From a virus (lineage: Duplodnaviria; Caudoviricetes): DNA of 35,608 nucleotides. Shown piece by piece: positions 7,795-34,374 of the stretch. Below the pieces are notes generated by a model. That model saw only the letters and a list, made by a program, of their open reading frames with translations, made no database searches and was not told where the DNA came from. Both the position numbers and the translations under genes were made by a program. The stretch spans positions 1-35,608 of the IMG/VR virus record IMGVR_UViG_3300037506_000165; one strand, given 5' to 3'. Numbering within the stretch: the first letter of the stretch is position 1; each line of letters starts with the position of its first letter.

Positions 7795-8084
7795 AGCTAA
7801 TGTACCACAGCACTACGCTGCCACGAGTCAACGCCATTGTCGAGCCACACGACAGAACGGCAGTCGTCAAAAAGAAAAACCTGGCCTACAAGCTCATCAT
7901 TGAATCACCCAACAGAAAAGGCCAACTAGCAGTCCACATGACGCCGATGCAACTCATCTGCATCTTCGAAATGCTCTACTCAGTCGTCCTTCAGGAGAAG
8001 CTATGCATCCCGCACTCCGAGCAGCCCTTGACGCCATACCGACCGACCTCGAGCCCATCGACCAGCACACAGCACGCGGCCTGA
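7791..8084 (+). CDS. hypothetical protein
   Basis: CAGGAGAAGCTATG start context, identical to that of the next gene. Confidence 0.5.
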   Translation: MKLMYHSTTLPRVNAIVEPHDRTAVVKKKNLAYKLIIESPNRKGQLAVHMTPMQLICIFEMLYSVVLQEKLCIPHSEQPLTPYRPTSSPSTSTQHAA

Positions 8085-9034
8085 TGATCGGATACCACAA
8101 ACGATGGTGCACCAATCACCCTTGGACCAGCGAAGCCATCGAAACTACCTTCATTGTGCCCATTTACAACCCAGACACCGGCAGGCAGTCGCGTTACGCC
8201 CCCCACGCCGGCAAAATGGACAACATTGCTACAGGGCCGCCGGGCAGAGTGTTGGTCGAACACAAAACATGCAGCGAGGATATCACTGCCCCAGACGCCC
8301 CATACTGGCGACGCCTGGCCATCGACAGCCAAATCAGCCAGTACATGCTCGCCGCATGGCAAAAAGGCATCAAAATCACTACATGCCTCTACGATGTCAT
8401 CCGCAAACCATGCATTGCGCCCAAAAAGCTCGGGCTCAAAGACGCCGCCAAAGTGCTCAACCAAGACACGTACCTCGGTCAGCGCATCAGCCCAGAAACG
8501 CACCACGACTTCTACCATGACACCGAAAAGCGCGAAACGCCAGAAATGTTCGGCATCAGGCTGGCCCAAGACTGCCAAACGCGACCCGAATGGTATTTTC
8601 AAAGGCGGTTGATCCAAAGAACAGAAAAAGACCTTGTCGAAACCGCCTCTCAACTCTGGAACACCGTCAAGGAGATCAAGAATGCAGACAAACTCAAGCA
8701 ATTCCGACGCAACGACGAAGCCTGCTTCGCCTGGGGCCGGCCATGCGAATACTTCGACCTCTGCACCGGAGTCTCCGACCCAAGAAGATGGCCCAAAAAC
8801 CCAAAGCGGCACCCAGAACTTGAAATCGCAGACGACCAAACAGCCATCACCCACTCAGCCCTCACAACGTACGCCACATGCCCCAAGAAATACGAGTACC
8901 GCTACATCGAAGGCTTCCAGTCAGAGCCAAGCCAAGCCCTCACCTTCGGCACCGATATGCACGCAGCTATCGCGGCCTGGTGGCACACCATTGACCAAGC
9001 TCGTCGCCATCAAGCCCAACAAACGAGTGCCTAA
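8003..9034 (+). CDS. PD-(D/E)XK (Cas4/AddB-like) exonuclease, apparently circularly permuted
   Basis: GKMD...VEHKT, Q..QY, C-x5-C-x5-C cluster; the HSALTTYATCPKKY...FGTDMH block is C-terminal. Confidence 0.85.
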   Translation: MHPALRAALDAIPTDLEPIDQHTARGLMIGYHKRWCTNHPWTSEAIETTFIVPIYNPDTGRQSRYAPHAGKMDNIATGPPGRVLVEHKTCSEDITAPDAPYWRRLAIDSQISQYMLAAWQKGIKITTCLYDVIRKPCIAPKKLGLKDAAKVLNQDTYLGQRISPETHHDFYHDTEKRETPEMFGIRLAQDCQTRPEWYFQRRLIQRTEKDLVETASQLWNTVKEIKNADKLKQFRRNDEACFAWGRPCEYFDLCTGVSDPRRWPKNPKRHPELEIADDQTAITHSALTTYATCPKKYEYRYIEGFQSEPSQALTFGTDMHAAIAAWWHTIDQARRHQAQQTSA

Positions 9035-9818
9035 CCATATCGTGCTCTACACGGTACCTGGGTGGGGCAAAACCTCATTCGCGGCCCAGGCAGACAAAGT
9101 CCTCTTCTTCATGTCACGAGGCGAAACTGGATTGCTCACCTTGTCGCAACATGACCAGATCCCAGAAACCCCTTTCATGCAATTTCAAGACGGGCACAAC
9201 CTTGTTCCTGACGCCCGATCTTGGCAGCAGGTTCTTCAAGCCATTGATGCACTGCTCCATCAAGACCACGACTATAAATGGATTGCCTTCGACACCCTCA
9301 ATGGAATAGAAAGGCTGTGCCACGAACATGTATGCCAAAAGGAATTTGCTGGCAATTGGGGCGAAAACGGCTTTGCTGCCTACCAGCGAGGCTACGACAT
9401 CTCCATCGCCTACTGGCTCGAATTCCTCAACTTGCTCAACAAGCTGCGCGACGAGCGTGGCATCGGCACCATAAGCCTTTGCCACGTCGCCAACAAAACC
9501 ATCAAAAACCCGCTCGGGGCCGACTACGACAGCTTCTTGCCTGACATGCACCTGAAAACATGGGCCAAAACGTCAGGCTGGGCTGACATCATCTTATTCG
9601 GTCGCTTCGAACTCGAAGTACTCCAAGCCAAGACTGACGCCACCAAGAAAGGCAAGGCCCGCGGAGGCAAAAACCGCATCATCTACACCACACACTGCGC
9701 TGGCTGGGATGCCAAAAACCGTCACGGCTTGCCTGACTACATCCTAATAAGCAACGAATCGGCAGCCCAAGCATGGCAAGACTTCAAAGACGCCTTTTCT
9801 AACAAGGAGAACGCATGA
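8991..9818 (+). CDS. AAA_24 / Sak4-like ATPase (single-strand annealing)
   Basis: VPGWGKTS, IAFDTLNGIE, YQRGY, WADIILF, WDAKNRHGLP; start uncertain (TTG 8991 or GTG 9027). Confidence 0.85.
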   Translation: MTKLVAIKPNKRVPNHIVLYTVPGWGKTSFAAQADKVLFFMSRGETGLLTLSQHDQIPETPFMQFQDGHNLVPDARSWQQVLQAIDALLHQDHDYKWIAFDTLNGIERLCHEHVCQKEFAGNWGENGFAAYQRGYDISIAYWLEFLNLLNKLRDERGIGTISLCHVANKTIKNPLGADYDSFLPDMHLKTWAKTSGWADIILFGRFELEVLQAKTDATKKGKARGGKNRIIYTTHCAGWDAKNRHGLPDYILISNESAAQAWQDFKDAFSNKENA

Positions 9819-10309
9819 AAACGTATCTGCCTGGCAAGTATCGCTGCAAGGTGACCGAGCAAAGCTTCACCAAAGCCAAGACTGGAACCCACCAGTTCGA
9901 ACTGCGCTTTGTCCCCGAAGGGCGATACAACGATCAGACTGGAGAACTGGAAGCCTGTGCGGCTGACGAACGCACAATCTTCAGGCCAATCACCGAAAAG
10001 ACAGTCGATGGCATTTTCCAGGACCTTGACAAGCTCTTTGGTTACACAGACACGACTTTCAGCCGCCTGGACCCGGGTCACCAGGAGTGCTTTTCGTTGG
10101 TCGGAATGGAGTTCGACGCTCAACTCGACTACGAAACCTGGAACCAAAAAGAGCGCGAACGCTGGCGATGGCTCGCAGGCAACGGCCGACCCCAAGGCCA
10201 ACTCCTCGACAGCGACGACATCCGCAAGTTGGACACCATGTTCGCGCGCAACAAGAAGCCAAACGGCAAGCAAACGAACACCAAACGAGCCGCCAAGGCT
10301 CCGTTCTAA
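9815..10309 (+). CDS. SSB-like protein (DUF669-like)
   Basis: LPGKYRCKV...KAKTG N-terminus, C-terminal PF, position right after Sak4. Confidence 0.65.
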   Translation: MKTYLPGKYRCKVTEQSFTKAKTGTHQFELRFVPEGRYNDQTGELEACAADERTIFRPITEKTVDGIFQDLDKLFGYTDTTFSRLDPGHQECFSLVGMEFDAQLDYETWNQKERERWRWLAGNGRPQGQLLDSDDIRKLDTMFARNKKPNGKQTNTKRAAKAPF

Positions 10310-11493: not shown

Positions 11494-11552
11494 ACCCAAA
11501 GCTGAGCGGTTTCCTAAACCGGCTGTCGCAGGTTCGAATCCTGCTGTGGGTA
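11494..11552 (+). mobile_element. tRNA-Arg(CCT) 3' fragment, probable attP core
   Basis: CGGT-TTCCTAA-ACCG anticodon arm, GCAGG-TTCGAAT-CCTGC T-arm, no D-arm; ~110 nt upstream of the integrase. Confidence 0.8.
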
Positions 11553-11659: not shown

Positions 11660-12811
11660 ATGCCAAGAATACCAAAGCTTCGCCGCCACGCCACCGGACA
11701 AGCGCACGCCAGAATAGGCGGCAAGGATTACTACTTCGGAGTGTGGCCAGAAGGCAAAAAGACCCCACCCGAAGCGGCGCGCGTCAGGTACGAAGCAATC
11801 CTCGCCGAGTGGCTCTCGTGTGGTCGGAGCTTCGCCGGCCACACGAATCTCACCATCACACAACTGATCGCCGAATACTGGCTCTGGGCTGCGAAGCGAT
11901 ACGAAACATCTCCTACCGAACTGCGAGACATCAAGCACGCACTACCCGAGTTGCGGCACCTTTACAGCCACGCCAGCGCATACAAGTTCAGCCTGACCCA
12001 CCTAGAACAAGTCCGCTACGCCATGATTCAACGCGGCCTAAAACGAATAGTCATCAATCACAGAATTGACAAGATCAAAAGACTGTTCAAATGGGCTGCA
12101 AGCCGAAAGCTCATTCCCCAAAACGTCTGGCACGACATCAGCCTGCTCGAAAGCCTCAAACCAGGCCAATCCAAAGCAAAAGAATCGCAGCCTATCGGGC
12201 CTCCGGACCCAAACGCTGTGACGGCTGCGCTCCGCTACGTGAGCCCTCAAGTCGCAGCCATGATCCAACTCCAAAGATGGACGGGCATGAGGCCCGGCGA
12301 GGTCTGCAAAATGCAAAAACACCTCATCGACATCACGGTCCAGCCATGGACCTACCGCATCCACTTCAAACGCAAGCTTCGCACCATCCCGCTGGGGCCT
12401 AAAGCAACATTTCTCCTCTCTCACTGGATGAACGAGAATCACTCACTGAGAGACTATCTCTTTTCTCCGAGGGAAGCCGAGCAGATCAGAAGATCTCTGC
12501 AAGCCGCGAGACGAACCCACGCCAGACGCAAGTCCACCATACAGCTTCGCGTGAGACGTAGGGAGCCAGGACCAAAGTACACAGTCGCATCCTATGCCCG
12601 AGCCATTGCCAGGGCGTGCCGCAAGGCAGGCGTCAAGCACTGGCATCCCCACCAGCTGCGCCACGAAATGGCAACACGCATCCAGCTAGCCGTCGCAGAA
12701 AGCCTTGCTGCTGCACAAGCAGTCCTCGAACACACCAGCCCGCAAGTCACGCAGATTTACGCACACGCCAGCAACAACATTGCAGCTGCACTGGTAGCCA
12801 AGCACGGGTAA
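11660..12811 (+). CDS. int: tyrosine recombinase/integrase
   Basis: TGMRPGE (Arg), HQLRH, LEH, TQIY (Tyr). Confidence 0.93.
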   Translation: MPRIPKLRRHATGQAHARIGGKDYYFGVWPEGKKTPPEAARVRYEAILAEWLSCGRSFAGHTNLTITQLIAEYWLWAAKRYETSPTELRDIKHALPELRHLYSHASAYKFSLTHLEQVRYAMIQRGLKRIVINHRIDKIKRLFKWAASRKLIPQNVWHDISLLESLKPGQSKAKESQPIGPPDPNAVTAALRYVSPQVAAMIQLQRWTGMRPGEVCKMQKHLIDITVQPWTYRIHFKRKLRTIPLGPKATFLLSHWMNENHSLRDYLFSPREAEQIRRSLQAARRTHARRKSTIQLRVRRREPGPKYTVASYARAIARACRKAGVKHWHPHQLRHEMATRIQLAVAESLAAAQAVLEHTSPQVTQIYAHASNNIAAALVAKHG

Positions 12812-15018: not shown

Positions 15019-15546
15019 ATGAAGAAGCTCACCCCCGACCAACAAAAGCTCGCCGCCAGCGGAATACACCTCGCCACAGCTCTGGCCTGTAAGTTCGTCA
15101 AGAAGCTCACAGACAAATCTAACGAACAAGAATACCACTCGGCAGCACAACTAGCCCTATGTCACGCAGCACTCTCATACGACCCAAGCCTCGGAAGCCT
15201 CTGGACGACATACGCCTACAAGGTCATCCAGAACGCGCTAATGCGCACACACCGAAACCTCAAACCCAAGGGATTCAGGCACAACAAAGACAGTAATCAG
15301 CCCCCAGTAATCCTCCGTCGCAGCCAGGAACACCTCGACGAAATCCCAGACCCCAGAACCGCGCATCCACAAATAGACGAAACACTAGAAGGACTGCGCG
15401 ACTCAACCAAACAAATCCTAACCGACCACATCCTGGGCGGCCGATCTTGCCGGCAAATTGCACGAGACTGCCAGGCCAACCCAAGCGCCATACGAAACAA
15501 AATCACCAGGGCGCTCACCAAACTCCGCCGACAACTTGCCGCATGA
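15019..15546 (+). CDS. sigma-70 family sigma factor
   Basis: region 2 (AALSYDPSLGSLWTTYAYKVI) and region 4 HTH (GRSCRQIA...RALTKLR). Confidence 0.8.
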   Translation: MKKLTPDQQKLAASGIHLATALACKFVKKLTDKSNEQEYHSAAQLALCHAALSYDPSLGSLWTTYAYKVIQNALMRTHRNLKPKGFRHNKDSNQPPVILRRSQEHLDEIPDPRTAHPQIDETLEGLRDSTKQILTDHILGGRSCRQIARDCQANPSAIRNKITRALTKLRRQLAA

Positions 15547-16859
15547 AATCCCCAACCATTCTCAGCTACGCACTGGACCCATCACTCATCATGAGGGCGA
15601 TGGGAAAGAAGCCAGACCCGTGGCAAAAAGCAGTCTTGAACGAAAAAGAACACCTATTGCTCAACTGTCACAGACAGGCCGGCAAAAGCACCATCATCGG
15701 CGTCAAGGCTTGTCACCGAGCCGTTTTCTTCCCCAAGTCAACAGTCGTCATCATCAGCAAGACCCAACGTCAAGCCGGAGAGTCCTTCCGCAAGTTCCTG
15801 GACGCATACTATGCCATTGGCGCACCCGTCGCCATGACGCACGACTCGCAACTCTTCTGCGAGCTAGAAAACAAAAGCCGCGTCATATCCCTGCCAGGAC
15901 GAGAGGACACCATTCGCGGCTACAGCGCCGTAGACCTTCTAATCATCGACGAGGCTTCGCGCGTCCCCGACTTCCTCTACGCCGCAGTCAGACCTATGGT
16001 CGCCATCTCGCGTGGCCAAATCGCTTGCCTCAGCACCCCATTCGGTCAACGCGGATTCTTTTGGCGCGAATGGAAGCGCACCGATCACTGGAAACGCATC
16101 CAGGTATCCGCAGACCAATGCCCACGGTTTACCAAGGAATACCTAGAAGCCGAAAGGCTAGCTCTTGGTGACAATGCCTTCGCACAAGAGTACATGTGTT
16201 CCTTTGTAGCCATTGAAGGGCTCGTCTATCCAAACTTCAAGCGCTGCCTCATTGACACATGGCCAGATCCAAAGGGCCGCAAGATCGGCGGAATTGACTG
16301 GGGCTGGAGGAACCCCTTTGCCGCCGTCTGGGGCATTCACGACCAGGACACAGACATCCTCTACATCCAGGCCGAGCGATACGCATCCACGCGCCCACTA
16401 GCCGAACACCGCGACGCCCTCAAGAAAGTTGGCGGCACATGGTACGCAGACCCTTCGGGGCCAACAGAAATCGCTGAATTCCGCGCAGCTGGCATCAGTG
16501 TATTCAAGGGCAACAACGCCCTCGAAGCCGGCATAGCCGCAGTTACGGCCCGAATCGACAGCGACCGCCTCAAAATCTACGCACCAAACTGCCCCAACGT
16601 CATTGACGAGGGAGAGACATACCGATACCCAGATCGGCGCGAGTACCACCCAGAGCCAACAAAGCCAATCGACGAACACAATCACGCCTGGAGCGCAATA
16701 CGCTACCTCATTAGCAAGCTCGATGTCCACTTCATGGCTCGCTACCGATTTAGAGAAGAGCTTGCCCAGCCACTCCTACCAAGGCTGCAACCGCAACAGC
16801 ACCCAGCCGAGCGCATTGGCCCAGACTTCAACGACCCCAACATCTGGACAACTGTCTAA
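15543..16859 (+). CDS. terL: terminase large subunit
   Basis: HRQAGKST, LIIDEAS, STPFG, GIDWG RNase H-like domain, DEHNHA. Confidence 0.93.
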   Translation: MKSPTILSYALDPSLIMRAMGKKPDPWQKAVLNEKEHLLLNCHRQAGKSTIIGVKACHRAVFFPKSTVVIISKTQRQAGESFRKFLDAYYAIGAPVAMTHDSQLFCELENKSRVISLPGREDTIRGYSAVDLLIIDEASRVPDFLYAAVRPMVAISRGQIACLSTPFGQRGFFWREWKRTDHWKRIQVSADQCPRFTKEYLEAERLALGDNAFAQEYMCSFVAIEGLVYPNFKRCLIDTWPDPKGRKIGGIDWGWRNPFAAVWGIHDQDTDILYIQAERYASTRPLAEHRDALKKVGGTWYADPSGPTEIAEFRAAGISVFKGNNALEAGIAAVTARIDSDRLKIYAPNCPNVIDEGETYRYPDRREYHPEPTKPIDEHNHAWSAIRYLISKLDVHFMARYRFREELAQPLLPRLQPQQHPAERIGPDFNDPNIWTTV

Positions 16860-18247
16860 TGACACTCAAAACCATCTTGCATCGCCTTGCCAAATGGGTC
16901 GCCGCCAAGACCACACAAGGCTCCTTCGGCTCCGGCATCAGCACACCCATAGACGCATATGGACGTCACCGCGCACCTACTCAGGTCGAACTGATAGCTC
17001 AACTCAAGAACACAGCTTACACCTGCGCAACCATCAACGCCCAGGTCTGCGCCACCTTTCCGCCCAAGCTCTACGTAGCAACCGCAACAGGACAGCGCAA
17101 AACGCGACTCGCCACACGCGCCTTGCGCGCCTCAGAGCTTGAGCGCCTGCGCCAAAACAAGAACATTCAGCAATACATCGCCAAGGCTCACACAGTCGAG
17201 GAAGTGACCGAGCACCCAATGCTCGACATGTTCCGCAACAACTTTGACTTGTGGGAACTCACCACGCTATACCAGGAGTCCGTGGGCTCAGCCTATTGGC
17301 TTTTGGAGTACAACGACCTCGGTGTGCCACACAACGCCTGGATTCTGCCGGCATACATGGTCACACCCAAGCGCGAGGACGGCAGCACGCGCGTTATCGA
17401 CTACTTCGAGTACACAAAAGGGACACGCACAGAAAAATTCGGGACCCACGAAATCATCTACTTCCGCTACCCAGACCCAAAGGACCCATACCGAAGCGGA
17501 CTCTCGCCAGTACGAGCAACCTACGAAAACATCGCAATGGCCAGCGAATATTTGGCATTCAAGCGAACAATGTGGGACAACGCTGGGATGCCAAGCGTGC
17601 TAATCAGTCCACACGACGGCTGTGGACCCGACGAGCGCCAAAGGCTTGAAGAAAAATGGCGACAACTCTTCCACCGAGGCGGCCGAACCGGCGGCGCTAT
17701 GGTTGCCGAATACCAAATGCACGTGGACATTCTCAGCCACAGCATGGGCGACCTTGCCGCTTTGGCCGAGTACGGCGCAACAACCAAGGACATTTGCAAC
17801 GCCTTCCACGTCCCAATTAGCTTTTTGACCAGCGAAACCAATCTCGCCAACTTGCAAGCCGCGCGCGAGCAGCACCGCAGCATGGCGATCAAGCCGAGAA
17901 TCTTGCGCCGCGACGACACCATCAATCGACAACTCGTTCCCTTGTTCGATGACTCAGGACGGCTATTTGTGGTCAGTCCGGACCCAGTACCCGACAACGA
18001 AGAGTTGCGCCTGAAAAAGATGGACCTCGAATTGCGCCTCGGCAAAAAAGCCATCAACGAATGGCGCGAGCTGGACGGCGAGCCGCCAGTCGAATGGGGA
18101 GACAAGCCGTGGCTCCCAGGGCATTGGATTCCCACAGACAAGGCCCGAGCCAACGTACAAATCGTGCTGATTGACAACCAAGACAAGCCCAACCCTGGCC
18201 TTGACGCATCTCCATCCATCGACCAACAGCCAAAGGATGAACAATGA
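16859..18247 (+). CDS. portal protein (HK97 type)
   Basis: GSAYW, EIIYFRYPDP..YRSGLSP, ICNAFHVP, INEWRELDG; position after terL. Confidence 0.9.
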   Translation: MTLKTILHRLAKWVAAKTTQGSFGSGISTPIDAYGRHRAPTQVELIAQLKNTAYTCATINAQVCATFPPKLYVATATGQRKTRLATRALRASELERLRQNKNIQQYIAKAHTVEEVTEHPMLDMFRNNFDLWELTTLYQESVGSAYWLLEYNDLGVPHNAWILPAYMVTPKREDGSTRVIDYFEYTKGTRTEKFGTHEIIYFRYPDPKDPYRSGLSPVRATYENIAMASEYLAFKRTMWDNAGMPSVLISPHDGCGPDERQRLEEKWRQLFHRGGRTGGAMVAEYQMHVDILSHSMGDLAALAEYGATTKDICNAFHVPISFLTSETNLANLQAAREQHRSMAIKPRILRRDDTINRQLVPLFDDSGRLFVVSPDPVPDNEELRLKKMDLELRLGKKAINEWRELDGEPPVEWGDKPWLPGHWIPTDKARANVQIVLIDNQDKPNPGLDASPSIDQQPKDEQ

Positions 18248-19077
18248 AATGGCATCAAGACTTCGGCCCAGTCGAGGGGCCGCTTGGCTTCCCAATGCTC
18301 GACAAACAAGCCCAGGCCATCGACCAGCTTCTCAAAACGCTCCCAAAGGATGAGGCATTTCGCTACCGCAAATCTGCCCAATTCAAGCTCACAGAGCTAA
18401 TGACCGGCGAGCGCACCGACGTAAGCTGGATCAGCACGCAAGACGTAGACCGAGTCGGCGACGTAGTCATAGCCGCCGGCATGGATGACTCGCACTACCG
18501 ACTCAACCCGCTTGTCACACTCGGCCACGAATACGACACAATGCCTGTCGGAAAAAGCCAATGGCGCAAGCGCGACAAGGATGGATCGCTTGTAGGAGTC
18601 AAGGCCAAAACGGTCTACCCCAAGAGACCCGACGACTGGCCTGGCGAAGAGTGGGACCCGGACTACGCATGGTCGCTCGTCAAGGCTGACCTTCTGCGCG
18701 GCAAATCCATCGGTTTTCTCCCCCTCGAAGTCCACAGTCCAAAACCAGAGGAGATCAAAAAGAATCCAGAATGGGCCAACGCCACACTCATTATCGACAA
18801 ATGGCTCCTCTTGGAGTACGCCTGTTGCTTCCTGCCAATCCAGCAACACGCCGTGGTCATTGAGGTTGGCAAGGCTGCCCTGCCGCCAAAAGCTCTACAC
18901 ATGGTCGCGAAAGGCTACAACCTCAACATAGAACAGCTTGTGCAGCAACACATCGGGTTCACCACAATCGAAGCCGTCCAAGAGGCCATTCAGCGACGAC
19001 TAATGCAAATCGACTTCGCTGCCATCACCGAATCAGCCATCAGTACAGCCGTAAATCGCGCCAAAGGCCGAGTATAA
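18244..19077 (+). CDS. prohead protease (HK97 type)
   Basis: ISTQDVDRVGDVV, NPLVTLGH, SIGF, LLEY; between portal and capsid. Confidence 0.8.
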   Translation: MKWHQDFGPVEGPLGFPMLDKQAQAIDQLLKTLPKDEAFRYRKSAQFKLTELMTGERTDVSWISTQDVDRVGDVVIAAGMDDSHYRLNPLVTLGHEYDTMPVGKSQWRKRDKDGSLVGVKAKTVYPKRPDDWPGEEWDPDYAWSLVKADLLRGKSIGFLPLEVHSPKPEEIKKNPEWANATLIIDKWLLLEYACCFLPIQQHAVVIEVGKAALPPKALHMVAKGYNLNIEQLVQQHIGFTTIEAVQEAIQRRLMQIDFAAITESAISTAVNRAKGRV

Positions 19078-19196
19078 CCAATTAGAGCCGATCCACATCA
19101 GGCGGGCCAAGGCGGACTCCAAGCCGCTCACCCGCTCACGTCGAGACGGACCACCACACATCACACATCCCACAACCGCACAGGAACACTCTAACC

Positions 19197-20525
19197 ATGT
19201 TCGTGCAACTCCTGAAAGACCACTTGGGTCAAAAGGCTGGCGCGCGCGTAGACGTTGACGAGCCGGTCGCCAAGACCCTGATGGAGCAAGGCATCGCCAA
19301 AGAGTTGGCTGCCAACCCGTTGGAGGAATTGGTCGCCAAGTCGATGGAAGGCATTCTTGCCAGCCTCCACAAAACCCTCGAAGCGAATCTCGAACACCAA
19401 CTGAAAGAATTCGCCAAAGCCCAGACTTGCTCCCGCAAAGGAGCCGCCGAGCGCATCTTTGGACACCGAGACGCAGACGCAAACCCCAAGGGCAACACCT
19501 TTGGCAAGTTTTTGCTAGCCGTTCGTCTTGGCGACCATAAAGCCTTGGAGGGCATGGGAGCTAAGTACGTCGAGTGGAACGACGTGCCAGCCGAATACAA
19601 GTCCACACTGGTCACCCAAGAAGGCACACTGGGAGGCTACGCCGTTCCGGATGAACACTACCAGGACATCTTGTCGCTGGTCATTGAAAAAACTGTCGTA
19701 CGCAAGCGAGCCCTGGTTATTCCGATGAGCGGCCGCACCTTAAAGGTGCCCATCGTCGATCACGCAACCGCTCCGGCCTCTGGCGATACTGCCTACCTGG
19801 GCGGCATGACAATGACTTGGACCGAAGAAGGCGCAGCCGCAACCGAGGACAACCCGCTCCTTGAGCAGATCGACCTCACCAACTACGAACTTCTCGGCTA
19901 CGTGCCGGCCAGCAACACCTTGCAGCAGGACTTCAAGGGCCTAGAAAGCTTCTTGAAGCGACTCTTTGCTGACGGTATTGCCTGGTACGAGGATCGCGCC
20001 TTCCTCCGTGGCGACGGCGTCGGCAAGCCATTGGGCGCCCAAAGCTGGACTGGATTCATCTCTGTCACCCGAAGCGCAGCCAGCGCATTTGCTCTGGCTG
20101 ATTACGCTGGCGTCCTGGCGCGTTGGCTTGGCGAATACAACGCCAGGCATTCCTGTTGGGTCGCTCACCCCACGGTGCTTGCCAAGCTGTATCAACTGGT
20201 GGCCACCAACAGCATCCCGCTCTTCATTGACAATGTGCGCGACAAGCCTGGCGCGATGCTTGGAGGTTTGCCGCTAGAAATCAGCGAAAAAGTCCCGGCG
20301 CTCAACACTGCTGGCGACATCGGAGTCTACGACTTCAGCAAGTACCTGATCGGTGATCGGCAGCAATACGAAGTCGCCTTCAGCCGAGACTTCCTGTTCA
20401 ACAAGAACCAGACCGCATGGCGCGTGGTTGACCGCGTTGGTGGGCTCCCCTGGATGCGCGACAAGTTCACGCTATCCGATGCCACTAATACGCTCGGCCC
20501 GTTCGTCGGACTCGCCGCCGGATAA
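19197..20525 (+). CDS. major capsid protein (HK97 fold)
   Basis: GGYAVP, WTEEG, FLRGDGVGKPLG, LGGLP, DFSKYLIGDR, FNKNQTAWR. Confidence 0.93.
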   Translation: MFVQLLKDHLGQKAGARVDVDEPVAKTLMEQGIAKELAANPLEELVAKSMEGILASLHKTLEANLEHQLKEFAKAQTCSRKGAAERIFGHRDADANPKGNTFGKFLLAVRLGDHKALEGMGAKYVEWNDVPAEYKSTLVTQEGTLGGYAVPDEHYQDILSLVIEKTVVRKRALVIPMSGRTLKVPIVDHATAPASGDTAYLGGMTMTWTEEGAAATEDNPLLEQIDLTNYELLGYVPASNTLQQDFKGLESFLKRLFADGIAWYEDRAFLRGDGVGKPLGAQSWTGFISVTRSAASAFALADYAGVLARWLGEYNARHSCWVAHPTVLAKLYQLVATNSIPLFIDNVRDKPGAMLGGLPLEISEKVPALNTAGDIGVYDFSKYLIGDRQQYEVAFSRDFLFNKNQTAWRVVDRVGGLPWMRDKFTLSDATNTLGPFVGLAAG

Positions 20526-20559
20526 CAACGATACACCTCTTTTGTCGCAGCCGTGAATA

Positions 20560-20584
20560 GGGGGCTGAGCCAAGCTCAGCCCCC
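20560..20584 (+). terminator. GC-rich stem-loop after capsid gene
   Basis: GGGGGCTGAGC-CAA-GCTCAGCCCCC. Confidence 0.5.
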
Positions 20585-20599
20585 GGCGCTGAGAGCAAA

Positions 20600-20782
20600 A
20601 TGACCTACTTCAAAGCTTGGTGCCGATGTCCCGTGTGCAACAAACTCCACATGGCGTACACCACCAAAAACACTCCGCGACTCAGCGGAGGCAGTTACAG
20701 CCTGCCGTGTGAAAAGCACTGCAATCATCGGCCAAACAAGCCAACCAGTACACAACCATCCCTTTTCAACTCCAAGGAATAA
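20600..20782 (+). CDS. small Cys-rich hypothetical protein
   Basis: CRCPVC...CEKHC; inserted in the head operon. Confidence 0.35.
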   Translation: MTYFKAWCRCPVCNKLHMAYTTKNTPRLSGGSYSLPCEKHCNHRPNKPTSTQPSLFNSKE

Positions 20783-20785
20783 CCC

Positions 20786-21220
20786 ATGCAGTGGCTCCAT
20801 GAACAGATCGGCGTCGTCGCAACCATTGACGCCAAGGACCAGAACAACCAGTCTGGCGTCTTGAGCGACGCCATCGACATGTCCAAGTTCCGTCAGATTC
20901 TGGCCATCCTGAACTGCGGAAACGTGGACAACGCATTCGACATGAAGCTTCAGGCTTCCGCGACTGCCGGCGGCTCTTACGCGGACATCACCGGCAAAGC
21001 CATCACGCAGCTTGCGGCCCACGCCACCAACAACGACGGCAAGATAGTCGCGATCGCGCTCAAGCAGGAAGAAATGCCTGCCGGCAAGCAGTTCGTCAAG
21101 GTCAGTCTGACTGTGGGCAACGGAACAGCGAACCCGTGCGCAGTCATCGTGCTCGGCGAAGCAGTCTATGCGCCGGCCACAAATCATGACTTAGCCGACG
21201 TAGCAGAGATCATCAAGTAG
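20786..21220 (+). CDS. probable head decoration/cement protein
   Basis: AAGGA RBS; IDMSKF...KLQASATAGGSYADITGKAI beta-rich pattern after capsid gene. Confidence 0.65.
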   Translation: MQWLHEQIGVVATIDAKDQNNQSGVLSDAIDMSKFRQILAILNCGNVDNAFDMKLQASATAGGSYADITGKAITQLAAHATNNDGKIVAIALKQEEMPAGKQFVKVSLTVGNGTANPCAVIVLGEAVYAPATNHDLADVAEIIK

Positions 21221-21233
21221 CTTCAAGCCACAT

Positions 21234-21255
21234 GGGCCTGGCGCACGCCAGGCCC
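21234..21255 (+). terminator. intrinsic terminator-like hairpin
   Basis: GGGCCTGGCG-CA-CGCCAGGCCC followed by CCTTT. Confidence 0.45.
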
Positions 21256-21272
21256 CCTTTGGTTGCACACTT

Positions 21273-22157
21273 ATGGCTGACCTCATCACCGCCGCGTACG
21301 CCAAGCGACGCATCAATAAGACCACTTTCACCTCGGGCGAAGATACGCTCATCAACGAGCTACTGGCCGCCTGCTCGAAGCAAATACGCAAATTCTGCCG
21401 CAGAGAGTTCGATAACCAGCAATTCGACCAACTGTACAACGGAACTGGGCACCGCCGGCTCATGCTGCACGAATGCCCCATAATCTCAATAGCCCGAGTC
21501 GCCAGCGGCCCAACAGACGTACTGAAGGTTACCAACACCGCCAGCGCCAACCAGCGCGCAACCGTCGCTGTCACCAGCACAGGCTTGACGTTGGTGCGTG
21601 TTGCATCCGCAGTCACAACCACTAACACGTTGGCATTTGCCGATTCAGACAAGAACACCATTGGCGAATTGGCGACCGCCATCACGGCACTTGGAAACGG
21701 CTGGAGCGGAACAGCGGTCAGCGGATATTCAGACTGGCCCAGCGCTGACCTCAAAGCAATCCAGGGCGCTTTCAACGCCAAAGACGCCACGGTTGGACTG
21801 AAGATTCACGTCACAGAATTATCAAGCTATGAAATTGAAGCTGACGCCGGTTTCTTGATTCGCAGCGCACCAGGCCAGAACCCATTCATCCCGCCATACG
21901 ACGACTTGATCTGGACGCCAGGCTACCACAACTACCGCGTCATATACAACGCCGGCTTCGCAACGGTACCGGAAATCATCCAAGAGGCTTGTGCAGAATG
22001 GGTAGCAGCACTTTTTTGGCAATCCAAGCGCGACCCTGGGGCCACCAAGACAAGCACATCGTATCCCTCACAGCCAACGACCCTCCCAACGCTCGGAATG
22101 CCTGAGCAAATCAGGCAGATGATCGAGCCGTACATCAACCCAAGGCTGCAACTGTAG
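21273..22157 (+). CDS. head-tail adaptor (gp6/gp15-like) with large central insertion
   Basis: LITAAYAK...EDTLINELLAACSKQIRKFCRREF...YNAGFATVPEIIQEAC. Confidence 0.8.
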   Translation: MADLITAAYAKRRINKTTFTSGEDTLINELLAACSKQIRKFCRREFDNQQFDQLYNGTGHRRLMLHECPIISIARVASGPTDVLKVTNTASANQRATVAVTSTGLTLVRVASAVTTTNTLAFADSDKNTIGELATAITALGNGWSGTAVSGYSDWPSADLKAIQGAFNAKDATVGLKIHVTELSSYEIEADAGFLIRSAPGQNPFIPPYDDLIWTPGYHNYRVIYNAGFATVPEIIQEACAEWVAALFWQSKRDPGATKTSTSYPSQPTTLPTLGMPEQIRQMIEPYINPRLQL

Positions 22158-22158
22158 C

Positions 22159-22512
22159 ATGTTCGAACCGAACACCACCTGTGACATCTACCGAACTGGC
22201 ACCGCGCCGCCAGCGTCGCCAGCCGTATCGGGTGTCCAAATCCTACTCATTTCAGACTTCGAGCGTGGACAAGAAAAAGATGGCACAAAATGGAGCCATT
22301 ACATGCTCTGTGCACTCGACACGGACGTGCGAGACGATTGGGACGAAGGAACGCCGTCGCTAACCAACGACACGGTATGGATTCCAGATAAAGACGGCGT
22401 TGAGTACCGAGTTCAGTTCGTGACGCAACTGTACCGAGGTACTCCGGACGAGCAAAAGAAAGTCTACCTGGCCCGCGCAGGAGTCACGTGGCCGAAAAAC
22501 GACGGGCTGTAA
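22159..22512 (+). CDS. probable head-closure (stopper) protein
   Basis: NTTCDIYR, DVRD, EYRVQFV; size and position after adaptor. Confidence 0.55.
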   Translation: MFEPNTTCDIYRTGTAPPASPAVSGVQILLISDFERGQEKDGTKWSHYMLCALDTDVRDDWDEGTPSLTNDTVWIPDKDGVEYRVQFVTQLYRGTPDEQKKVYLARAGVTWPKNDGL

Positions 22513-22513
22513 C

Positions 22514-22744
22514 ATGGACCTTCCAAACACCAAAAGCGAAGCTCAATCAGTGGTCGCCCTTTGCTCCGTCATAGGGCTGACCCTGGTAACCGCCGCCTCC
22601 CTGGTGGCCGACAGAGCCAACGGCACATCCAGCGAAGTGACTACCATGCTAGCAGGAGGGCTGATTTCGCTCTGCTCGACTGGAGCAAGTTGGTTATTCC
22701 GAAACGAAAACGGAAAACACACACCCACCAAGCCAGAAGCGTAA
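22514..22744 (+). CDS. small two-TM membrane protein (holin-like)
   Basis: two hydrophobic segments, charged C-tail, precedes amidase-like gene. Confidence 0.5.
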   Translation: MDLPNTKSEAQSVVALCSVIGLTLVTAASLVADRANGTSSEVTTMLAGGLISLCSTGASWLFRNENGKHTPTKPEA

Positions 22745-22851
22745 AGCAGACCTACTGGACGCACCGCCGACTCACGCCTCACCACGCACGTCTTTTTGTA
22801 CCTTCTGGCCACAAGGCCCCGCCCTGAGCCGCACAGGGCGGGGCACACGCC

Positions 22852-23406
22852 ATGAACAGACTTCCGCTCCTCAAGCCTGGCGACATCATTCTCCTCCACT
22901 CCGACAGCTGGATGGGCAGAGTGATCCGCTGGTTCGAAGCCAAGCAAACAGGACACGCGCGTGTCCAGCACGCCGCAATGGCTCTTGGCGGACTTATGCG
23001 ACAACCAGCCGTGCTTGAAGCCCTGGCCACCGTCCGGCGCACACCTCTATCACGATACACAGATCAGCAAATCATCATCTACCGACACAAGCATCTGCCA
23101 AAAGCAGCCAGATGCGAAATTGCTCTCGAAGCCGTAACGCGCCAAGGCGAGCCATATGCCGTCCTCAAGCTCTTGTTGCTGGCCGCAGACGCCTTAACGG
23201 GAACCACATTCTTCAGCCGCACATTCAAGATCACCAAGCTCATGGTGTGCTCAAACGTCATTGCCTGGGCTTACGAGCGAGTGCTTGGCTTCCAACCGTT
23301 CAACTTGCCCTGGCAGAGCGTAACACCAGACCACATAGACGACACTTGCTCACGCAACCCAGAAGATTGGGAATGCCTCTACGACTCCATCGAGGAGAAC
23401 ACATGA
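22852..23406 (+). CDS. permuted papain-like NlpC/P60 amidase (YiiX/YebB-like)
   Basis: LKPGDIIL, QHAAM (His) before GEPY and VCSNVIAWAY (Cys). Confidence 0.8.
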   Translation: MNRLPLLKPGDIILLHSDSWMGRVIRWFEAKQTGHARVQHAAMALGGLMRQPAVLEALATVRRTPLSRYTDQQIIIYRHKHLPKAARCEIALEAVTRQGEPYAVLKLLLLAADALTGTTFFSRTFKITKLMVCSNVIAWAYERVLGFQPFNLPWQSVTPDHIDDTCSRNPEDWECLYDSIEENT

Positions 23407-24494
23407 TTCACGCCTTCGCGCTGCTTACAGCCATCACCTTCGCTTGACCACCAAGCCAGCAGAGCCCAGTTGGGCCAAATCCGACGCCAGGCACGGCAGC
23501 CAGCCACGCCACCGTTCAGGTCATCATAACGTCGCAGAGCGGAGCGCAGGGAGGCGGTTCTGGCGTAGTGGTTGCCGTCAAGCCATCGGACAAAACTCCT
23601 GGCAACTTTACGGCCTACATTCTCACGTGCCGACACGTCGTCATGGACGAGGACTCACGAACACACCAATCAAACATCACCGTCAAATTCCCAAACAACA
23701 ACCACACTACGGCTGACATCTTCCGAACCACAAGCATCTCGGAGCCAGTAGACCTGGCTATCATCGTAACAACGATCAACTGGTCGCAGCCAACAGCCAA
23801 GCTGGCAGACAGTGAAGCGCAGACAGGCGAACCTGTATTCTGCGTCGGCTATCCAGGGCTAATCGGCCCAAAGCTTCGCAACGGTGTCAGCCGAGGCTAC
23901 GCTGGGGCAATCAGTAATCCGCCAGCAGTGCCGCGCAACAGCAATGAATTCGCACTGGCCTGCGAACCAGGAGACAGCGGTGCCGGAGTCTGGCGCACAT
24001 CATCTGGATATTTGGTCGGCATCGTTTGGGGCGGCGAACCAATCAACATCACGTACGCCGTCACACTAGCCGACATCAGGGCGTTTTGCGAATACACAGG
24101 CTGCCCGTGCCCAAAGAACCCAACCAGGCCGCCCGCTGACCTGCCACGGTTCCCGCCTGAGCCAGGCCCCCAAGGGCCTCCTGGCCCACCAGGACCTCCT
24201 GGCAGAGACGCCGAGCCTCCACCAATCAGCGCGGCTGGCCATATCGTCACAGGCGTGCTCACCGGCAGCGCATTCCCAATCATCTTTGGATTGGGACAGC
24301 TTGGTGCCTGGCTTTGGCGTCGCCGCCGGCCAGGCGAAGCCCTACCGATTCCAGTGCCGCCCGTACAAGCGCCACCAGGAGACCCGCTCGAAAACGCGCT
24401 GACCGAACTCAGTAAGCGCTTCGACTCAATCCAGAAAGTCTCAGCCATAGTGCACCAAATCGCAGCCAAGCTGCCCAAGCCAAACGCGCAATAG
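23403..24494 (+). CDS. secreted trypsin-like serine protease with collagen repeat and TM anchor; in-frame TGA at codon 15
   Basis: LTCRHV, DLAI, PGDSG triad; GSGVVV lies upstream of the track start in the same frame; GAGGAG RBS at 23403; TGA 23445-23447. Confidence 0.8.
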
Positions 24495-24562: not shown

Positions 24563-24757
24563 ATGAGGGAACGCAAGAAACCCAAGCCGGCCTTCCGAGT
24601 CTGCCTTGTCTTGCAGCAGCAAGACGAAGCTGGACGATTTCAGCACTTGGCCATCAAGAGGATCGGCAAAGGATACGCAACGCAAGAAGAGGCCCAGGCG
24701 GCTTTCGACGCCACTCTGGCGCAACTAAAGCTACCCGCAACCACGGTCCCAGAATGA
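24563..24757 (+). CDS. hypothetical protein
   Basis: GAGGA RBS, ATGA overlap. Confidence 0.55.
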   Translation: MRERKKPKPAFRVCLVLQQQDEAGRFQHLAIKRIGKGYATQEEAQAAFDATLAQLKLPATTVPE

Positions 24758-25110
24758 TCGCTTGGCTAGCCAACATCGCGACTTCCATCGCTAGCGCATT
24801 GCAAGCGCACAGGAAGCCCAAAGCCAAACGCTCTCCGCGTTGGCCGCAACTGAGAGCGGAGCACCTCAGATTAGAGCCTTACTGCCAAGCTTGCGGCAGA
24901 GCCAACCATTTGAGCGTGCACCACGTCGAGCCTGTGCACGTTGCGCCCGACAAAGAGCTTGACTCGAACAACCTCATTACTCTGTGCGAAGGGCCGGTTT
25001 TCAACTGCCACCTGTTTTTCGGACACCTCGGCAACTGGAAAAGCTGGAACCCAACTGTCAGGAAAGACGCCTGGTATTGGAAAACCAAGGTATGCACACG
25101 ACTGAAATAA
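24754..25110 (+). CDS. HNH endonuclease (gp74-like)
   Basis: RWPQLRAEHL...CQAC...VHHVEP...NLITLC...CH. Confidence 0.85.
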   Translation: MIAWLANIATSIASALQAHRKPKAKRSPRWPQLRAEHLRLEPYCQACGRANHLSVHHVEPVHVAPDKELDSNNLITLCEGPVFNCHLFFGHLGNWKSWNPTVRKDAWYWKTKVCTRLK

Positions 25111-27984: not shown

Positions 27985-29100
27985 ATGCCGTCAAAAACCA
28001 TAGAAATCGCCTGCGACATCGCAAGAACGCCGCGAGTCCTGCAAATTGAAGGCATGTTTGACGTGCCGCCCAGCGCGAGGCAAGTGCTCCGCTGGGAAGT
28101 CGATCTGCCGATTGACAACGAGCCGTGGCACATTGGCCTTATCGTTGGACCATCAGGCTCCGGCAAAAGCACAGTCGCGCGGCAGCTATTCGGGCCTTAC
28201 TTGCGAGACGAGCAGAGCTACCAATGGTCAGACACCGAATCTATTGTGGACGGCTTCCCCGAGGATATGCCGACGCATGACCTGGTTGCATTGCTAAGCT
28301 CCATTGGATTCAGCAGCCCGCCAAGCTGGCTTCGGCCTTTCAATAAACTCAGCAAGGGCGAGCAATTCCGCGTGACGGTGGCGCGAATGCTCGCCGAGAA
28401 TCTGCCTCTTGTGGCGTGCGACGAGTTCACGAGCACCGTGGACCGCACGGTGGCGCAAATCTCCAGCGCGGCAATAGCCAAAACCATTCGGCGTCAAGGC
28501 AAGCGCCTGATCGCCATTACCTGCCACGAAGATATTGAAGAGTGGCTACAGCCAGACTGGATGTACAGGCCAAGCGCGAATCAGTTCGCAAGGAGGTCTC
28601 TTCGGCAAAGACCAGCCGTCGAGTTGGAAGTTCACCGCGTCACTGCTGAGGCATGGCCACTCTTTCGTCACCATCACTATCTAGACACCGAACTGCACCC
28701 CATGAGCCAATGCTACATGGCGACATGGAGAGGCAGGCCAGTAGCCTTCTCCTCGTGGCTGAGCTTGATGCTTCGCAGCCGACTGGGATCAGCAAGACGA
28801 GAGCACCGCACTGTCTGTTTGCCTGACTACCAGGGCATCGGCATCGGCAACGCGCTGTCCGACTTCTGCGCCAGCATCCACAAGGCTATGGGGCACAGAG
28901 CCACGTCTACAACATCACACCCAGCCATGATCGCATCCAGGATGCGGTCGCCAAACTGGAAGATGACACGGCCGCCCACGATCGGGCGAAGCTCCAAAAG
29001 CTCGCACTCAAAGCTCAAGCACTCAACCACGCGCATGACGGCCGGCTTCGAGTACGTCGGGCCGTCGGCCTCAACCGAACACGCAAGGGCTCTGTCATGA
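27985..29100 (+). CDS. ABC-type ATPase fused to GNAT acetyltransferase
   Basis: GPSGSGKS, LSKGE, DEFTSTVDR; FRHHHYL, RTVCLPDYQGIGIG. Confidence 0.88.
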   Translation: MPSKTIEIACDIARTPRVLQIEGMFDVPPSARQVLRWEVDLPIDNEPWHIGLIVGPSGSGKSTVARQLFGPYLRDEQSYQWSDTESIVDGFPEDMPTHDLVALLSSIGFSSPPSWLRPFNKLSKGEQFRVTVARMLAENLPLVACDEFTSTVDRTVAQISSAAIAKTIRRQGKRLIAITCHEDIEEWLQPDWMYRPSANQFARRSLRQRPAVELEVHRVTAEAWPLFRHHHYLDTELHPMSQCYMATWRGRPVAFSSWLSLMLRSRLGSARREHRTVCLPDYQGIGIGNALSDFCASIHKAMGHRATSTTSHPAMIASRMRSPNWKMTRPPTIGRSSKSSHSKLKHSTTRMTAGFEYVGPSASTEHARALS

Positions 29101-29573
29101 AGAAAGGCAAGTTCACTGCGGAGGTGCAGGACCGCATCATTGCCGCACTGCAAAGCGGAGCGTTTCTGCACGTTGCAGCCGAAGCAGCCGGAGTCCACCG
29201 TAGCACCATTTGGAACTGGATGAACAGCCCAGGGCGGCGCTACCGCGCCTTTCAGGCGCGAGTCCGTGAAGCCATTGCGCACGCCAGGCTGACAGCCGAA
29301 ATCACCGTATTCAAGGCTGACCCCAAGTTTTGGCTCCGATGCGGCCCAGGCAGGCAACGCTACGACGAGGATGGCCGGCTTGTCGAGGGCTGGACGGAAG
29401 CCGTCAACCCAGAGCAAAAAGAAACACAGCAGGTGAACATCCTGATGTCGCCAGAGTGGGAGGCGATCCGCCTGGCGCTGGAGACAGCACTACACGACAA
29501 CCCAGAAGCATTACAAAAGGTCACGCAAGCCTTGCTGGCCGTCAAGCACCCACCCAAAGCCATCACGGAGTAA
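29097..29573 (+). CDS. HTH protein, terminase small subunit-like
   Basis: FTAEVQDRIIAALQSG...AAEAAGVHRSTIWNWM followed by helical region. Confidence 0.6.
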   Translation: MKKGKFTAEVQDRIIAALQSGAFLHVAAEAAGVHRSTIWNWMNSPGRRYRAFQARVREAIAHARLTAEITVFKADPKFWLRCGPGRQRYDEDGRLVEGWTEAVNPEQKETQQVNILMSPEWEAIRLALETALHDNPEALQKVTQALLAVKHPPKAITE

Positions 29574-30650: not shown

Positions 30651-31087
30651 GGCGCATCCATGCCCAGCTTGACAGTGCACCCCCTCGCTGCGGGCGTCCA
30701 TGCCCTGCGCTCGGGGGATATAGGCCCGTCCCTGACAATACACCCCGGCGCACGTGTACGGCAACTGACGCGCTGATACCCCCCTTCGGGGGGCTACTTG
30801 CGGTCCCCTCGTGATACTGCAATGACCCTGTCTTTTGAAACGTCACACGCCCCGCTCGCCCCGCCCCTCCGCCCTAGCCCCCAGACGCCCTTACTGCCTG
30901 GCACTAACGCTTAGAACGTCGCGCCCTGGGCGATTGGGGGCGGGCTGCGGGGACGGGGCTTCGCGGGCGGCGGCCGAGGCCGTGAAGGACCAAGGCGCAT
31001 GATTGCGTGGCTACTAAATGGTGGCGCAAAATTGCGAAATGTGAAAATGGCAAATGGGGCAATGGGCGACTGGGGGCGACAGGAGGG

Positions 31088-31558
31088 CTAGGCGTCACAG
31101 GGGCGTGCACCCCGCCGCGACGGAAGAGCGCCCAAAAGTCCGCGAAGGCAGCAGGCACCCACTCGCGCCAAGCCCCGAGCCGAGTGAGCCAGCCGGCATC
31201 GAAAGGCCGAGCACGGGCAAGCGGACCTCAAACGCGCCAGGACGGCAGGTCAGGACGGAGCGGACGAGCGACAGGCCCCCAGAAGAAGCTCACCATGCCA
31301 CAGCGCCAGGCCGAGACGCAGCCAGCACGCACCTCAGGCCGGAGTCCGAGCACAGATCAGCACGGGCTTACACGAGGCAGCCCAGAACAGGTACGCGCAC
31401 TCGCCAGCCTCACGAGCGAACATCGGCACACCCCTGGCGCAACCGGCACAGACACGCCGGCAGCCCCATACCCAGGAGCCGGCAGGCACGCGCGAGCCAG
31501 CGGAGCGAATGGGGACCGAGGCAGGACACACGAGCCGACCAGCGACGACAGGAGCCAT
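31088..31558 (-). pseudogene. frameshifted mirror copy of the SLOG-like gene
   Basis: same GGAGGTGTGTTATG start and GACGCCTAG end as 31992-32444; the ATG frame stops at 31334. Confidence 0.75.
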
Positions 31559-31611
31559 AACACACCTCCACAAGAAAACACAGGCCCAAAACACACACGC
31601 CCCCACGCACC

Positions 31612-31617
31612 ATTATA
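31612..31617 (-). promoter_or_regulatory. TATAAT -10 box present only in the degenerate arm
   Basis: + strand ATTATA; matching position of the intact arm (31938-31943) reads TGTGCG; no good -35. Confidence 0.5.
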
Positions 31618-32444: not shown

Positions 32445-32517
32445 CCCTCCTGTCGCCCATTCGCCCATCGCCCATTCGCCCTTTTCACTATTTCACACTC
32501 TTGCACAGGAGCTTGTT

Positions 32518-34307: not shown

Positions 34308-34320
34308 TCCTTTCTGATCT

Positions 34321-34355
34321 GCGGCGCGTCGCTGTTTCCGGCAGCGACGCACCGC
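34321..34355 (+). terminator. stem-loop
   Basis: GCGGcGCGTCGCTG...CAGCGACGCaCCGC. Confidence 0.45.
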
Positions 34356-34374
34356 AACAATGGAGGTGTGTGTA

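What the first reader, a model, noticed from the sequence alone, without database searches (positions are those of the whole stretch)
15543..24494. Full HK97-type head and neck but no tail genes in an apparently complete genome
Seen: terL-portal-protease-capsid-decoration-adaptor-stopper is followed directly by holin-like, amidase and protease genes. No tail tube, terminator, sheath, tape measure, baseplate or fibre ORF is recognisable, and no unassigned long ORF remains. Known: capsid-forming PICIs encode head modules and take tails from helper phages, and RcGTA DNA enters via competence machinery including DprA. Inference: a large capsid-forming satellite or tailless element. Entry as ssDNA through host uptake machinery would also explain the fold-back promoter, hairpin arrays, second SSB and DprA-like gene.
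Basis: partly seen in the sequence, partly recalled or inferred. Interest (0 to 1): 0.85.

Follow-up and report, generated by a model that had tools for sequence, protein, structure and literature searches.

The report
Phage-sized tail-less capsid-forming mobile element
A 35.6-kb virus-like element, likely from Gemmataceae bacteria, encodes a full DNA-packaging head and neck but no recognisable tail; dozens of relatives lack tails too, so it most likely borrows tails from other phages, or possibly enters cells without one.

Summary
The anatomy is confirmed. TerL, portal, protease, HK97 capsid, a siphovirus-type adaptor and a stopper are present; no tail gene is found. Completeness is likely but unproven: the record is classed linear (CheckV 34%). 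However, it holds an attP-like tRNA fragment, its ends overlap by 4 nt, and a collinear 27-kb relative spans the break without tail genes.

Tail absence is clade-wide. Of 135 adaptor-bearing loci, 20 carry a tail-completion gene and 69 carry this stopper family; none carries both. Tail-less adaptors form one clade, and the stopper is under purifying selection.

Best reading (0.45): a cf-PICI-like tail pirate of independent origin, likely in Gemmataceae, phage-sized and self-replicating. It fails the cf-PICI definition on size and gene order. Main rival (0.25): tail-free entry. No helper with a matching stopper was found, and a 1.48-kb fold-back looks selected to pair as a single strand. The 'DprA' genes are SLOG domains only.

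This scan found the cassette family before, as integrase-less planctomycete chromosomal islands. New here is the mobile, excised, phage-sized form.

The parts
15543..16859 (+). terminase large subunit
   Evidence: phrog_7579 E 1.6e-53, PF03237
16859..18247 (+). HK97-type portal
   Evidence: PF04860 E 2.8e-31
18244..19077 (+). likely prohead protease
   Evidence: weak hit to N-terminal part of phrog_617; same position in 90 loci
19197..20525 (+). HK97 major capsid protein
   Evidence: PF05065 E 6.7e-43
20786..21220 (+). conserved post-capsid protein, probable decoration (label positional)
   Evidence: phrog_28483/5707 unknown function; family in 92 loci
21273..22157 (+). head-tail adaptor, gp6/Ad1 fold with beta insertion
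   Evidence: phrog_442; model; Z 10.8 Mycofy1, 10.2 DT57C, 9.8 HK97 gp6, 9.4 RcGTA
22159..22512 (+). stopper (Hc1 fold), clade-specific family
   Evidence: XkdH E 0.0022; Z 9.2 XkdH, 8.8 RcGTA stopper
22514..22744 (+). small hydrophobic, holin-like protein (inferred)
   Evidence: no holin family hit; 58% identical homologue in L001
22852..23406 (+). permuted papain-like YaeF/YiiX C92 enzyme
   Evidence: Atlas TM 0.80; phrog_1128
23403..24494 (+). trypsin-like protease with signal-like N-terminus, interrupted by an in-frame TGA at codon 15
   Evidence: PF13365; translation
24754..25110 (+). HNH endonuclease
   Evidence: PF01844
27340..29100 (+). ParB-like gene and ABC-ATPase/acetyltransferase gene that close the late module across the family
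29097..29573 (+). terminase small subunit, last gene of the late module
   Evidence: phrog_4102 E 1e-8
11494..11552 (+). 3' tRNA fragment (anticodon arm reading CCT, and T arm) just before the integrase; attP-like
   Evidence: RF00005 26.1 bits, below gathering score, D arm missing; no full tRNA
11660..12811 (+). tyrosine integrase
   Evidence: PF00589
12992..15546 (+). DUF1580 protein, primase/helicase-like ATPase, HNH, sigma-like factor
8003..10309 (+). exonuclease, Sak4 recombinase, SSB-like gene
   Evidence: paralogue of 33765 gene
31026..32504 (.). 1.48-kb imperfect fold-back: intact A-poor SLOG gene 31992-32444 in the right arm, frameshifted inverted copy in the left arm
33765..35358 (+). 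second DUF669-like SSB gene and SLOG (YAcAr) gene

Best explanation
This is an integrase-carrying mobile element, likely of Gemmataceae, that encodes its own replication genes, terminase, HK97 head, adaptor and stopper but no tail, and most likely completes its particles with tails made by an unidentified siphovirus, as capsid-forming PICIs do. Shown: the gene set, the folds of adaptor and stopper, the clade-wide lack of tail genes, one adaptor clade, purifying selection. Inferred: excision at the tRNA attP, packaging into a full-size head (35.6 kb fits no reduced capsid), release of closed tail-less heads, docking of a foreign tail on the stopper ring, and second stopper copies widening the range of usable tails. 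It likely arose by one loss of the tail operon from a temperate siphovirus, separately from known cf-PICIs, and kept phage-like autonomy; small chromosomal cassettes are likely its grounded descendants.
For: The neck is the siphovirus docking set, Ad1 plus Hc1. In cf-PICIs adaptor and connector set tail choice and tail-less capsids are released (10.1101/2025.02.11.637232, passages). Tail-completion gene and this stopper exclude each other: 20 and 69 of 135 loci, 0 both; 9 and 11 of 50 more records, 0 both. In 40 of 115 loci without the completion gene, the adaptor-to-ParB gap is 54-6179 bp (median about 2 kb), largest ORF 531 aa. Controls: neck/tail hits in 9 of 10 distant loci, tape measure in 7. 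34 tail-less adaptors form one side of a branch, SH-aLRT 98, against 21 tailed. Stopper dN/dS median 0.18 (13 non-independent pairs). Tail-less capsids fall into three groups among tailed phages, and tailed G067 sits inside the window's capsid group, which suggests gene exchange with tailed phages.
Against: No tailed phage with this stopper family was found (18 loci, 0 of 9 completion-positive records, 0). The nearest tailed stopper family aligns at only 19% identity, probability 61%. The element is as large as complete tailed relatives (G056, 35.5 kb) and has recombination, methylase, nucleotide and sigma genes, unlike 14-kb cf-PICIs. Nine stopper copies carry long extensions, and a few intact-looking loci lack a stopper (e.g. 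L092, L030). Host genomes could not be searched for tails. PHROG missed most tail genes of G067, so profile negatives alone are not proof.
Confidence: 0.45

Rival explanations
1. Autonomous tail-less virus: the derived stopper ring, sometimes doubled or extended, is the terminal cap. The head is taken up or opens at the planctomycete envelope, and DNA would reach the cytoplasm through host uptake machinery as a single strand, with early genes read from a folded template strand.
For: Stopper family is large and self-contained (682 clusters at E 0.001) yet unmatched in tailed phages. 21 of 68 loci have two copies, 9 copies are extended, one with a glycine-rich domain. Fibre, collar, lectin and Ig-like genes occur in relatives. 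Fold-back: 586 matches, 49 mismatches, 40 short indels; pairs that are G-T on the minus strand outnumber those on the plus strand 19 to 4, p 0.003. The minus strand is the template, as for plasmid Frpo promoters (PMC11541004, passages). The A-poor SLOG gene recurs in G003.
Against: The window has no recognisable receptor-binding, pilot or ejection protein. No long fold-back was found in other loci of 6 kb or more. An RNA hairpin would explain the bias equally. The SLOG genes are not full DprA. No tail-less HK97 phage of bacteria turned up in searches.
Confidence: 0.25
2. Tail supplied in trans by a fixed partner: an unlinked tail operon in the host chromosome or a second segment, or hitch-hiking on a helper virion as MiniFlayer does.
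For: The family's modules do split: capsid-to-TerS blocks sit without portal or TerL among host-like genes in L095, L099, L114. MiniFlayer precedent (PMC10690885, passages).
Against: No tail-only partner was seen; the window has no fibre gene; host genomes were not searchable here.
Confidence: 0.15
3. The contig is a fragment of an ordinary siphovirus whose tail operon lies in the unassembled gap.
For: Linear, CheckV 34%; depth falls to 3-5 at both ends and no contig bridges them.
Against: Both ends lie among early genes. A 4-nt overlap restores a ribosome-binding motif 8 nt before the first ATG. G003 and G020 run through the equivalent stretch with no tail hit. The clade lacks tails.
Confidence: 0.08
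4. Defective prophage lineage that no longer makes infective particles.
For: Premature stop in the protease gene; some relatives' capsid matches contain stops (4 of 48).
Against: attP-like excised arrangement; intact head and neck; dN/dS medians 0.18-0.29; one adaptor clade with deep divergence.
Confidence: 0.07

Closest known systems
Capsid-forming PICIs (cf-PICI; PMC10085698 and 10.1101/2025.02.11.637232, passages read)
   Same: Integrase, primase, HNH, TerS, TerL, portal, protease, HK97 capsid, adaptor and connector; no tail.
   Different: 35.6 kb against a median of 14 kb (elements over 30 kb were discarded in that survey); TerS far from TerL; recombination, methylase, nucleotide and sigma genes; a holin-like gene; likely Planctomycetota host (term absent from PMC10085698); own adaptor and stopper families with no match in 50,697 phage or 72,556 plasmid records (adaptor).
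MulchRoom and MiniFlayer satellites of Streptomyces phages (PMC10690885, passages read)
   Same: Independent capsid-forming satellites; MulchRoom has an integrase and uses its helper's tail.
   Different: 15-17 kb, terminal repeats, no primase; MiniFlayer has a fibre gene that the window lacks.
RcGTA (PMC10883770, passages read)
   Same: Adaptor and stopper folds match RcGTA neck proteins; proposed as a model for uptake-assisted entry.
   Different: RcGTA has a head-tail cluster, cannot propagate itself, and uses host DprA/ComEC; this element has integrase and replication genes.
Putative Gemmata phage BHS, MF098554 (PMC5707555, passages and supplement search)
   Same: A 27-kb contig from a virus fraction with Gemmata-like terminase and capsid genes.
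   Different: Described as a partial lambda-like siphovirus with a tape-measure gene. The record is not held here, so its membership of this family and that annotation were not tested.
Uncultured tailed relatives (e.g. G067, G056, loci L057/L058/L064)
   Same: Related capsid or adaptor; G067 shares the capsid group and a paired gene family found after the stopper in relatives.
   Different: They carry completion, terminator, chaperone or tape-measure genes and a different stopper.

Membership tests
cf-PICI | integrase, primase-replicase, HNH | tested here: met
cf-PICI | TerS, TerL, portal, protease, capsid | tested here: met
   protease hit weak
cf-PICI | head-tail adaptor and connector | tested here: met
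cf-PICI | no tail genes | tested here: met
   subject to the unclosed ends
cf-PICI | no holin | tested here: inconclusive
   76-aa hydrophobic gene after the stopper, no family hit
cf-PICI | AlpA/MerR/Stl regulator after the integrase | tested here: inconclusive
   DUF1580 protein in that place
cf-PICI | compact size (median 14 kb, under 30 kb) | tested here: not met
   35.6 kb; definition
cf-PICI | conserved compact order with the packaging genes together | tested here: not met
   TerS at 29097, TerL at 15543, early region between them on the circle; TerS also ends the module in relatives
cf-PICI | induced by a helper and uses its tails | not testable with these tools
   needs culture
Podovirus-type virion | large nozzle and ejection-protein genes | tested here: not met
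   only unassigned frame over 300 aa is a 303-aa early-region protein
Podovirus-type virion | P22 gp4/T7-type adaptor | tested here: inconclusive
   podovirus adaptors listed at Z 6.9 or less, sipho/myo types at 8.8-10.8; a Hc1 stopper follows
Siphovirus (complete) | completion protein, terminator, tube, tape measure, baseplate | tested here: not met
   controls positive
Gene transfer agent | no integrase or own replication | tested here: not met
   integrase, attP-like site and primase present
Gene transfer agent | packages random host DNA | not testable with these tools
   needs particle sequencing
DprA | full-length match to the DprA model | tested here: not met
   only model positions 45-103 of 212 matched; YAcAr SLOG passes its cut-off

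The most novel reading that the evidence does not exclude
A whole lineage of HK97-type bacterial viruses in Gemmataceae gave up the tail for good. The stopper ring became the terminal organ, and the genome enters through the host's own uptake route as a single strand that is transcribed from a folded template. These would be the first helper-free tail-less Caudoviricetes of bacteria.
Probability: 0.22. Interest if true: 0.93.

Novelty: new variant of a known kind. Interest (0 to 1): 0.7.

Why it matters
Tailed-phage doctrine holds that an HK97 head needs a tail, and known tail pirates are small satellites. Here a phage-sized, self-replicating element lacks a tail, along with a large clade (682 stopper clusters at 50% identity). 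If it pirates tails, tail piracy extends to a new phylum and to elements that otherwise look like full phages; such genomes would be routinely misfiled as incomplete (CheckV 34% here). If it needs no tail, it is a new mode of phage entry. It also supplies the likely mobile parent of the tail-less cassettes this scan found in planctomycete chromosomes, which makes the route from phage to satellite to domesticated capsid testable.

Tried and rejected
Direct proof of circularity: contigs of the one holding run cover 22-35590 with small holes and none passes either end; the run may be the source, so it is not independent. No RNA holder listed. No record of this family classed as having terminal repeats was found: the three such records among 100 checked are G041 and G056, which carry tail-completion genes, and G089, which was found through another gene and has no match to this stopper. 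Depth against GC was not significant (rho 0.35, p 0.24), so the depth taper is unexplained. Gemmataceae whole genomes could not be reached: the one genome scan gave an unrelated Bacteroidetes hit, and metagenome loci have no held genome. Adaptor search in phage and plasmid records: no match. AAA-gene scan found nothing. The ABC/GNAT scan covered 9 of 64 parts and mostly gave other phages. Podovirus reading rejected. The 303-aa helical ORF as a tape measure rejected: it lies in the early operon beside the AAA ATPase in all three close relatives, and has homologues in 41 viral loci; its fold was not modelled. Competence-DprA reading weakened. Rfam gave only the tRNA fragment and a chance hit. 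Literature searches listed no description of a tail-less capsid element in Planctomycetota; subscription papers and preprint supplements were not visible. No complex prediction was run.
Full report
1. The observation. The window is a whole IMG/VR record, classed linear, CheckV 34%. Nearly all genes lie on the plus strand. PHROG and Pfam scans of 65 ORFs give TerL, portal, capsid and adaptor at the stated places and no tail hit; 25 further proteins add none. The adaptor model (pLDDT 90.5) matches siphovirus and myovirus adaptors best: Mycofy1 Z 10.8 (162 aligned, rmsd 4.1), DT57C 10.2, HK97 gp6 9.8, RcGTA 9.4. Podovirus adaptors score 6.9 or less. The 117-aa gene after it has no family hit, but its profile finds PBSX XkdH (E 0.0022). 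Its model (pLDDT 91.2) matches stoppers: XkdH Z 9.2 (80 aligned, rmsd 3.4), RcGTA 8.8, Milano 8.7. Of 15 frames of 300 aa or more, 14 are assigned; the last is a 303-aa early-region protein. So the neck ends at the stopper, and no ORF is left for a tape measure or nozzle.

2. Is the record complete? Not proven. No contig of the holding run passes either end, and depth falls from 10.7 to 3-5 at the ends (that run may be the source). Four things favour a near-closed circle. (a) A tRNA fragment lacking the D arm lies directly before the integrase, mid-contig, as in an attP site. (b) The last four bases equal the first four. Read across, they place a GGAG motif 8 nt before the first ATG; 28 of 53 window genes have such a motif at 6-8 nt. 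(c) Both ends lie among early genes. (d) G003 (26.9 kb) shares 22 of 53 window genes in nearly the same circular order. It begins at the A-poor SLOG gene (35% identity) and ends after TerS, so it runs through the window's break. It has a 41-nt, 95% end match, though in a homopolymer-rich stretch. G020, a provirus, also runs from stopper through the early genes to the integrase with no tail hit; its long unknown ORF is an RHS protein on the other strand.

3. The relatives. The adaptor has 496 homologues; five of the best 120 are named Gemmataceae, and none of the 120 is named to another taxon. The stopper gives two more. The host is therefore likely, not shown. I fetched 160 adaptor loci, called genes with my own codon model and clustered them. 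After removing duplicates, 135 loci remain. Twenty carry a tail-completion gene, all with distant adaptors (157 bits or less). Of the other 115, 69 carry this stopper family; no locus has both. Many are short: 54 of the 115 have 1.5 kb or more downstream and 42 have 3 kb or more. Forty reach the ParB-like gene within 54-6179 bp, with no ORF over 531 aa in between. I scanned 146 of 176 picked representative proteins, dropping 30 that were mostly opposite-strand, host-like or short. None hit tube, tape measure, terminator, completion or sheath; three hit fibre or collar domains. The same scan found neck or tail genes in 9 of 10 distant loci. In 50 further records the split was 9 against 11, with no overlap. 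One caution: PHROG missed most tail genes of tailed G067, so the short gaps matter more than the negative scans.

4. History. In a quick maximum-likelihood tree of 55 chosen adaptors, the 34 tail-less ones form one side of a branch (SH-aLRT 98); the root is not known. Capsid trees need three changes, and tailed G067 falls inside the window's capsid group. One tail loss followed by capsid exchange with tailed phages is the simplest reading (inference). Pairwise dN/dS medians are 0.18 (stopper, 13 pairs), 0.28 (adaptor), 0.29 (capsid) and 0.25 (portal); pairs are not independent. The stopper profile finds 682 clusters at 50% identity. It is related to the stopper of tailed sister phages at only 19% identity.

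5. How it most likely works. Ad1 plus Hc1 is the surface on which siphovirus tails dock (established knowledge). In cf-PICIs these two genes decide which tail is used, and tail-less capsids are released (10.1101/2025.02.11.637232, passages). MulchRoom shows that this lifestyle has arisen separately (PMC10690885, passages). I therefore favour tail piracy (0.45). The element works like a cf-PICI but is not one by the published definition: it is 35.6 kb against a 14-kb median, and TerS is parted from TerL (PMC10085698, passages).

The case against piracy is real. No tailed phage with a matching stopper was found. The element looks as autonomous as a phage. Stoppers are doubled in 21 of 68 loci and extended in nine copies. 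The fold-back at 31026-32504 is not a neutrally decaying duplicate: indels are as common as substitutions, and wobble pairs favour the minus strand 19 to 4 (p 0.003). That strand is the template for the early genes, as with plasmid single-strand promoters (PMC11541004, passages). An RNA hairpin fits equally, and no other locus showed such a fold-back. The 'DprA' genes are SLOG domains only, and RcGTA's DprA and ComEC are host genes (PMC10883770, passages). Tail-free entry gets 0.25, a fixed partner 0.15, a fragment 0.08, a dead lineage 0.07.

6. Novelty. Searches listed no account of such elements in Planctomycetota. I also read part 1 of 2 of PMC12772148 and PMC12822802 and passages of PMC12673574. 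PMC5707555 reports a 27-kb putative Gemmata phage as a partial siphovirus with a tape-measure gene (passages; supplement search empty); the record is not held, so this is untested. Preprint supplements were closed and could list such elements. Four earlier notes of this scan describe the same kind of cassette as integrase-less chromosomal islands; these are leads, and I confirmed only the general pattern, in metagenome contigs. The new point here is the integrase-bearing, phage-sized form. Verdict: new variant of a known kind, interest 0.7.

Noticed in passing
window 31026-32504: 1.48-kb fold-back with about as many short indels (40, mostly 2 nt) as substitutions (49). The left arm carries the complement of a TATAAT box that the right arm lacks. 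Pairing of the minus strand is favoured.
   Followed up: partly
window 31992-32444; L177 6150-6719; L166 about 12900-13400: Base-depleted early genes: an A-poor SLOG gene in the window and G003, and a C-poor stretch over the DUF4326-like gene in G020. From recall, not from a call: T-poor or G-poor template strands could escape DarT-type enzymes that modify single-stranded DNA.
   Followed up: partly
window 23445-23447: In-frame TGA at codon 15 of the trypsin-like gene, right after a signal-like peptide; the run's contig shows the same letters. Nonsense change or read-through.
   Followed up: partly
L092, L095, L098, L099, L107, L112, L114, L116: Subgroup with a different capsid but the same neck. 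In L095, L099 and L114 the capsid-to-TerS block lies among host-like genes without portal or TerL, which suggests a split, domesticated system.
   Followed up: partly
L309 (G052), L310 (G054): Small viral contigs in which TerS is followed within 3-4 kb by SSB, primase or recombinase genes and TerL, with no integrase between them; possible plasmid-like small members. Their tail status is not shown.
   Followed up: partly
window 2316-6256: DUF1257, DUF2997, AAA ATPase and a 303-aa helical protein form a block shared by the four large members; function untested.
   Followed up: partly
L165/L166 (G020): Provirus record holds an RHS-repeat protein and a GmrSD-AlbA gene; its ParB-GNAT-TerS block is inverted.
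   Followed up: no
window 14391-14507 and 30068-30780: Hairpin with direct repeats after the primase gene (possible origin) and repeated hairpin units after TerS.
   Followed up: no
window 32773-32843 and 33199-33269: Two 89% identical terminator-plus-ribosome-site units flanking an early gene, like a cassette boundary.
   Followed up: no
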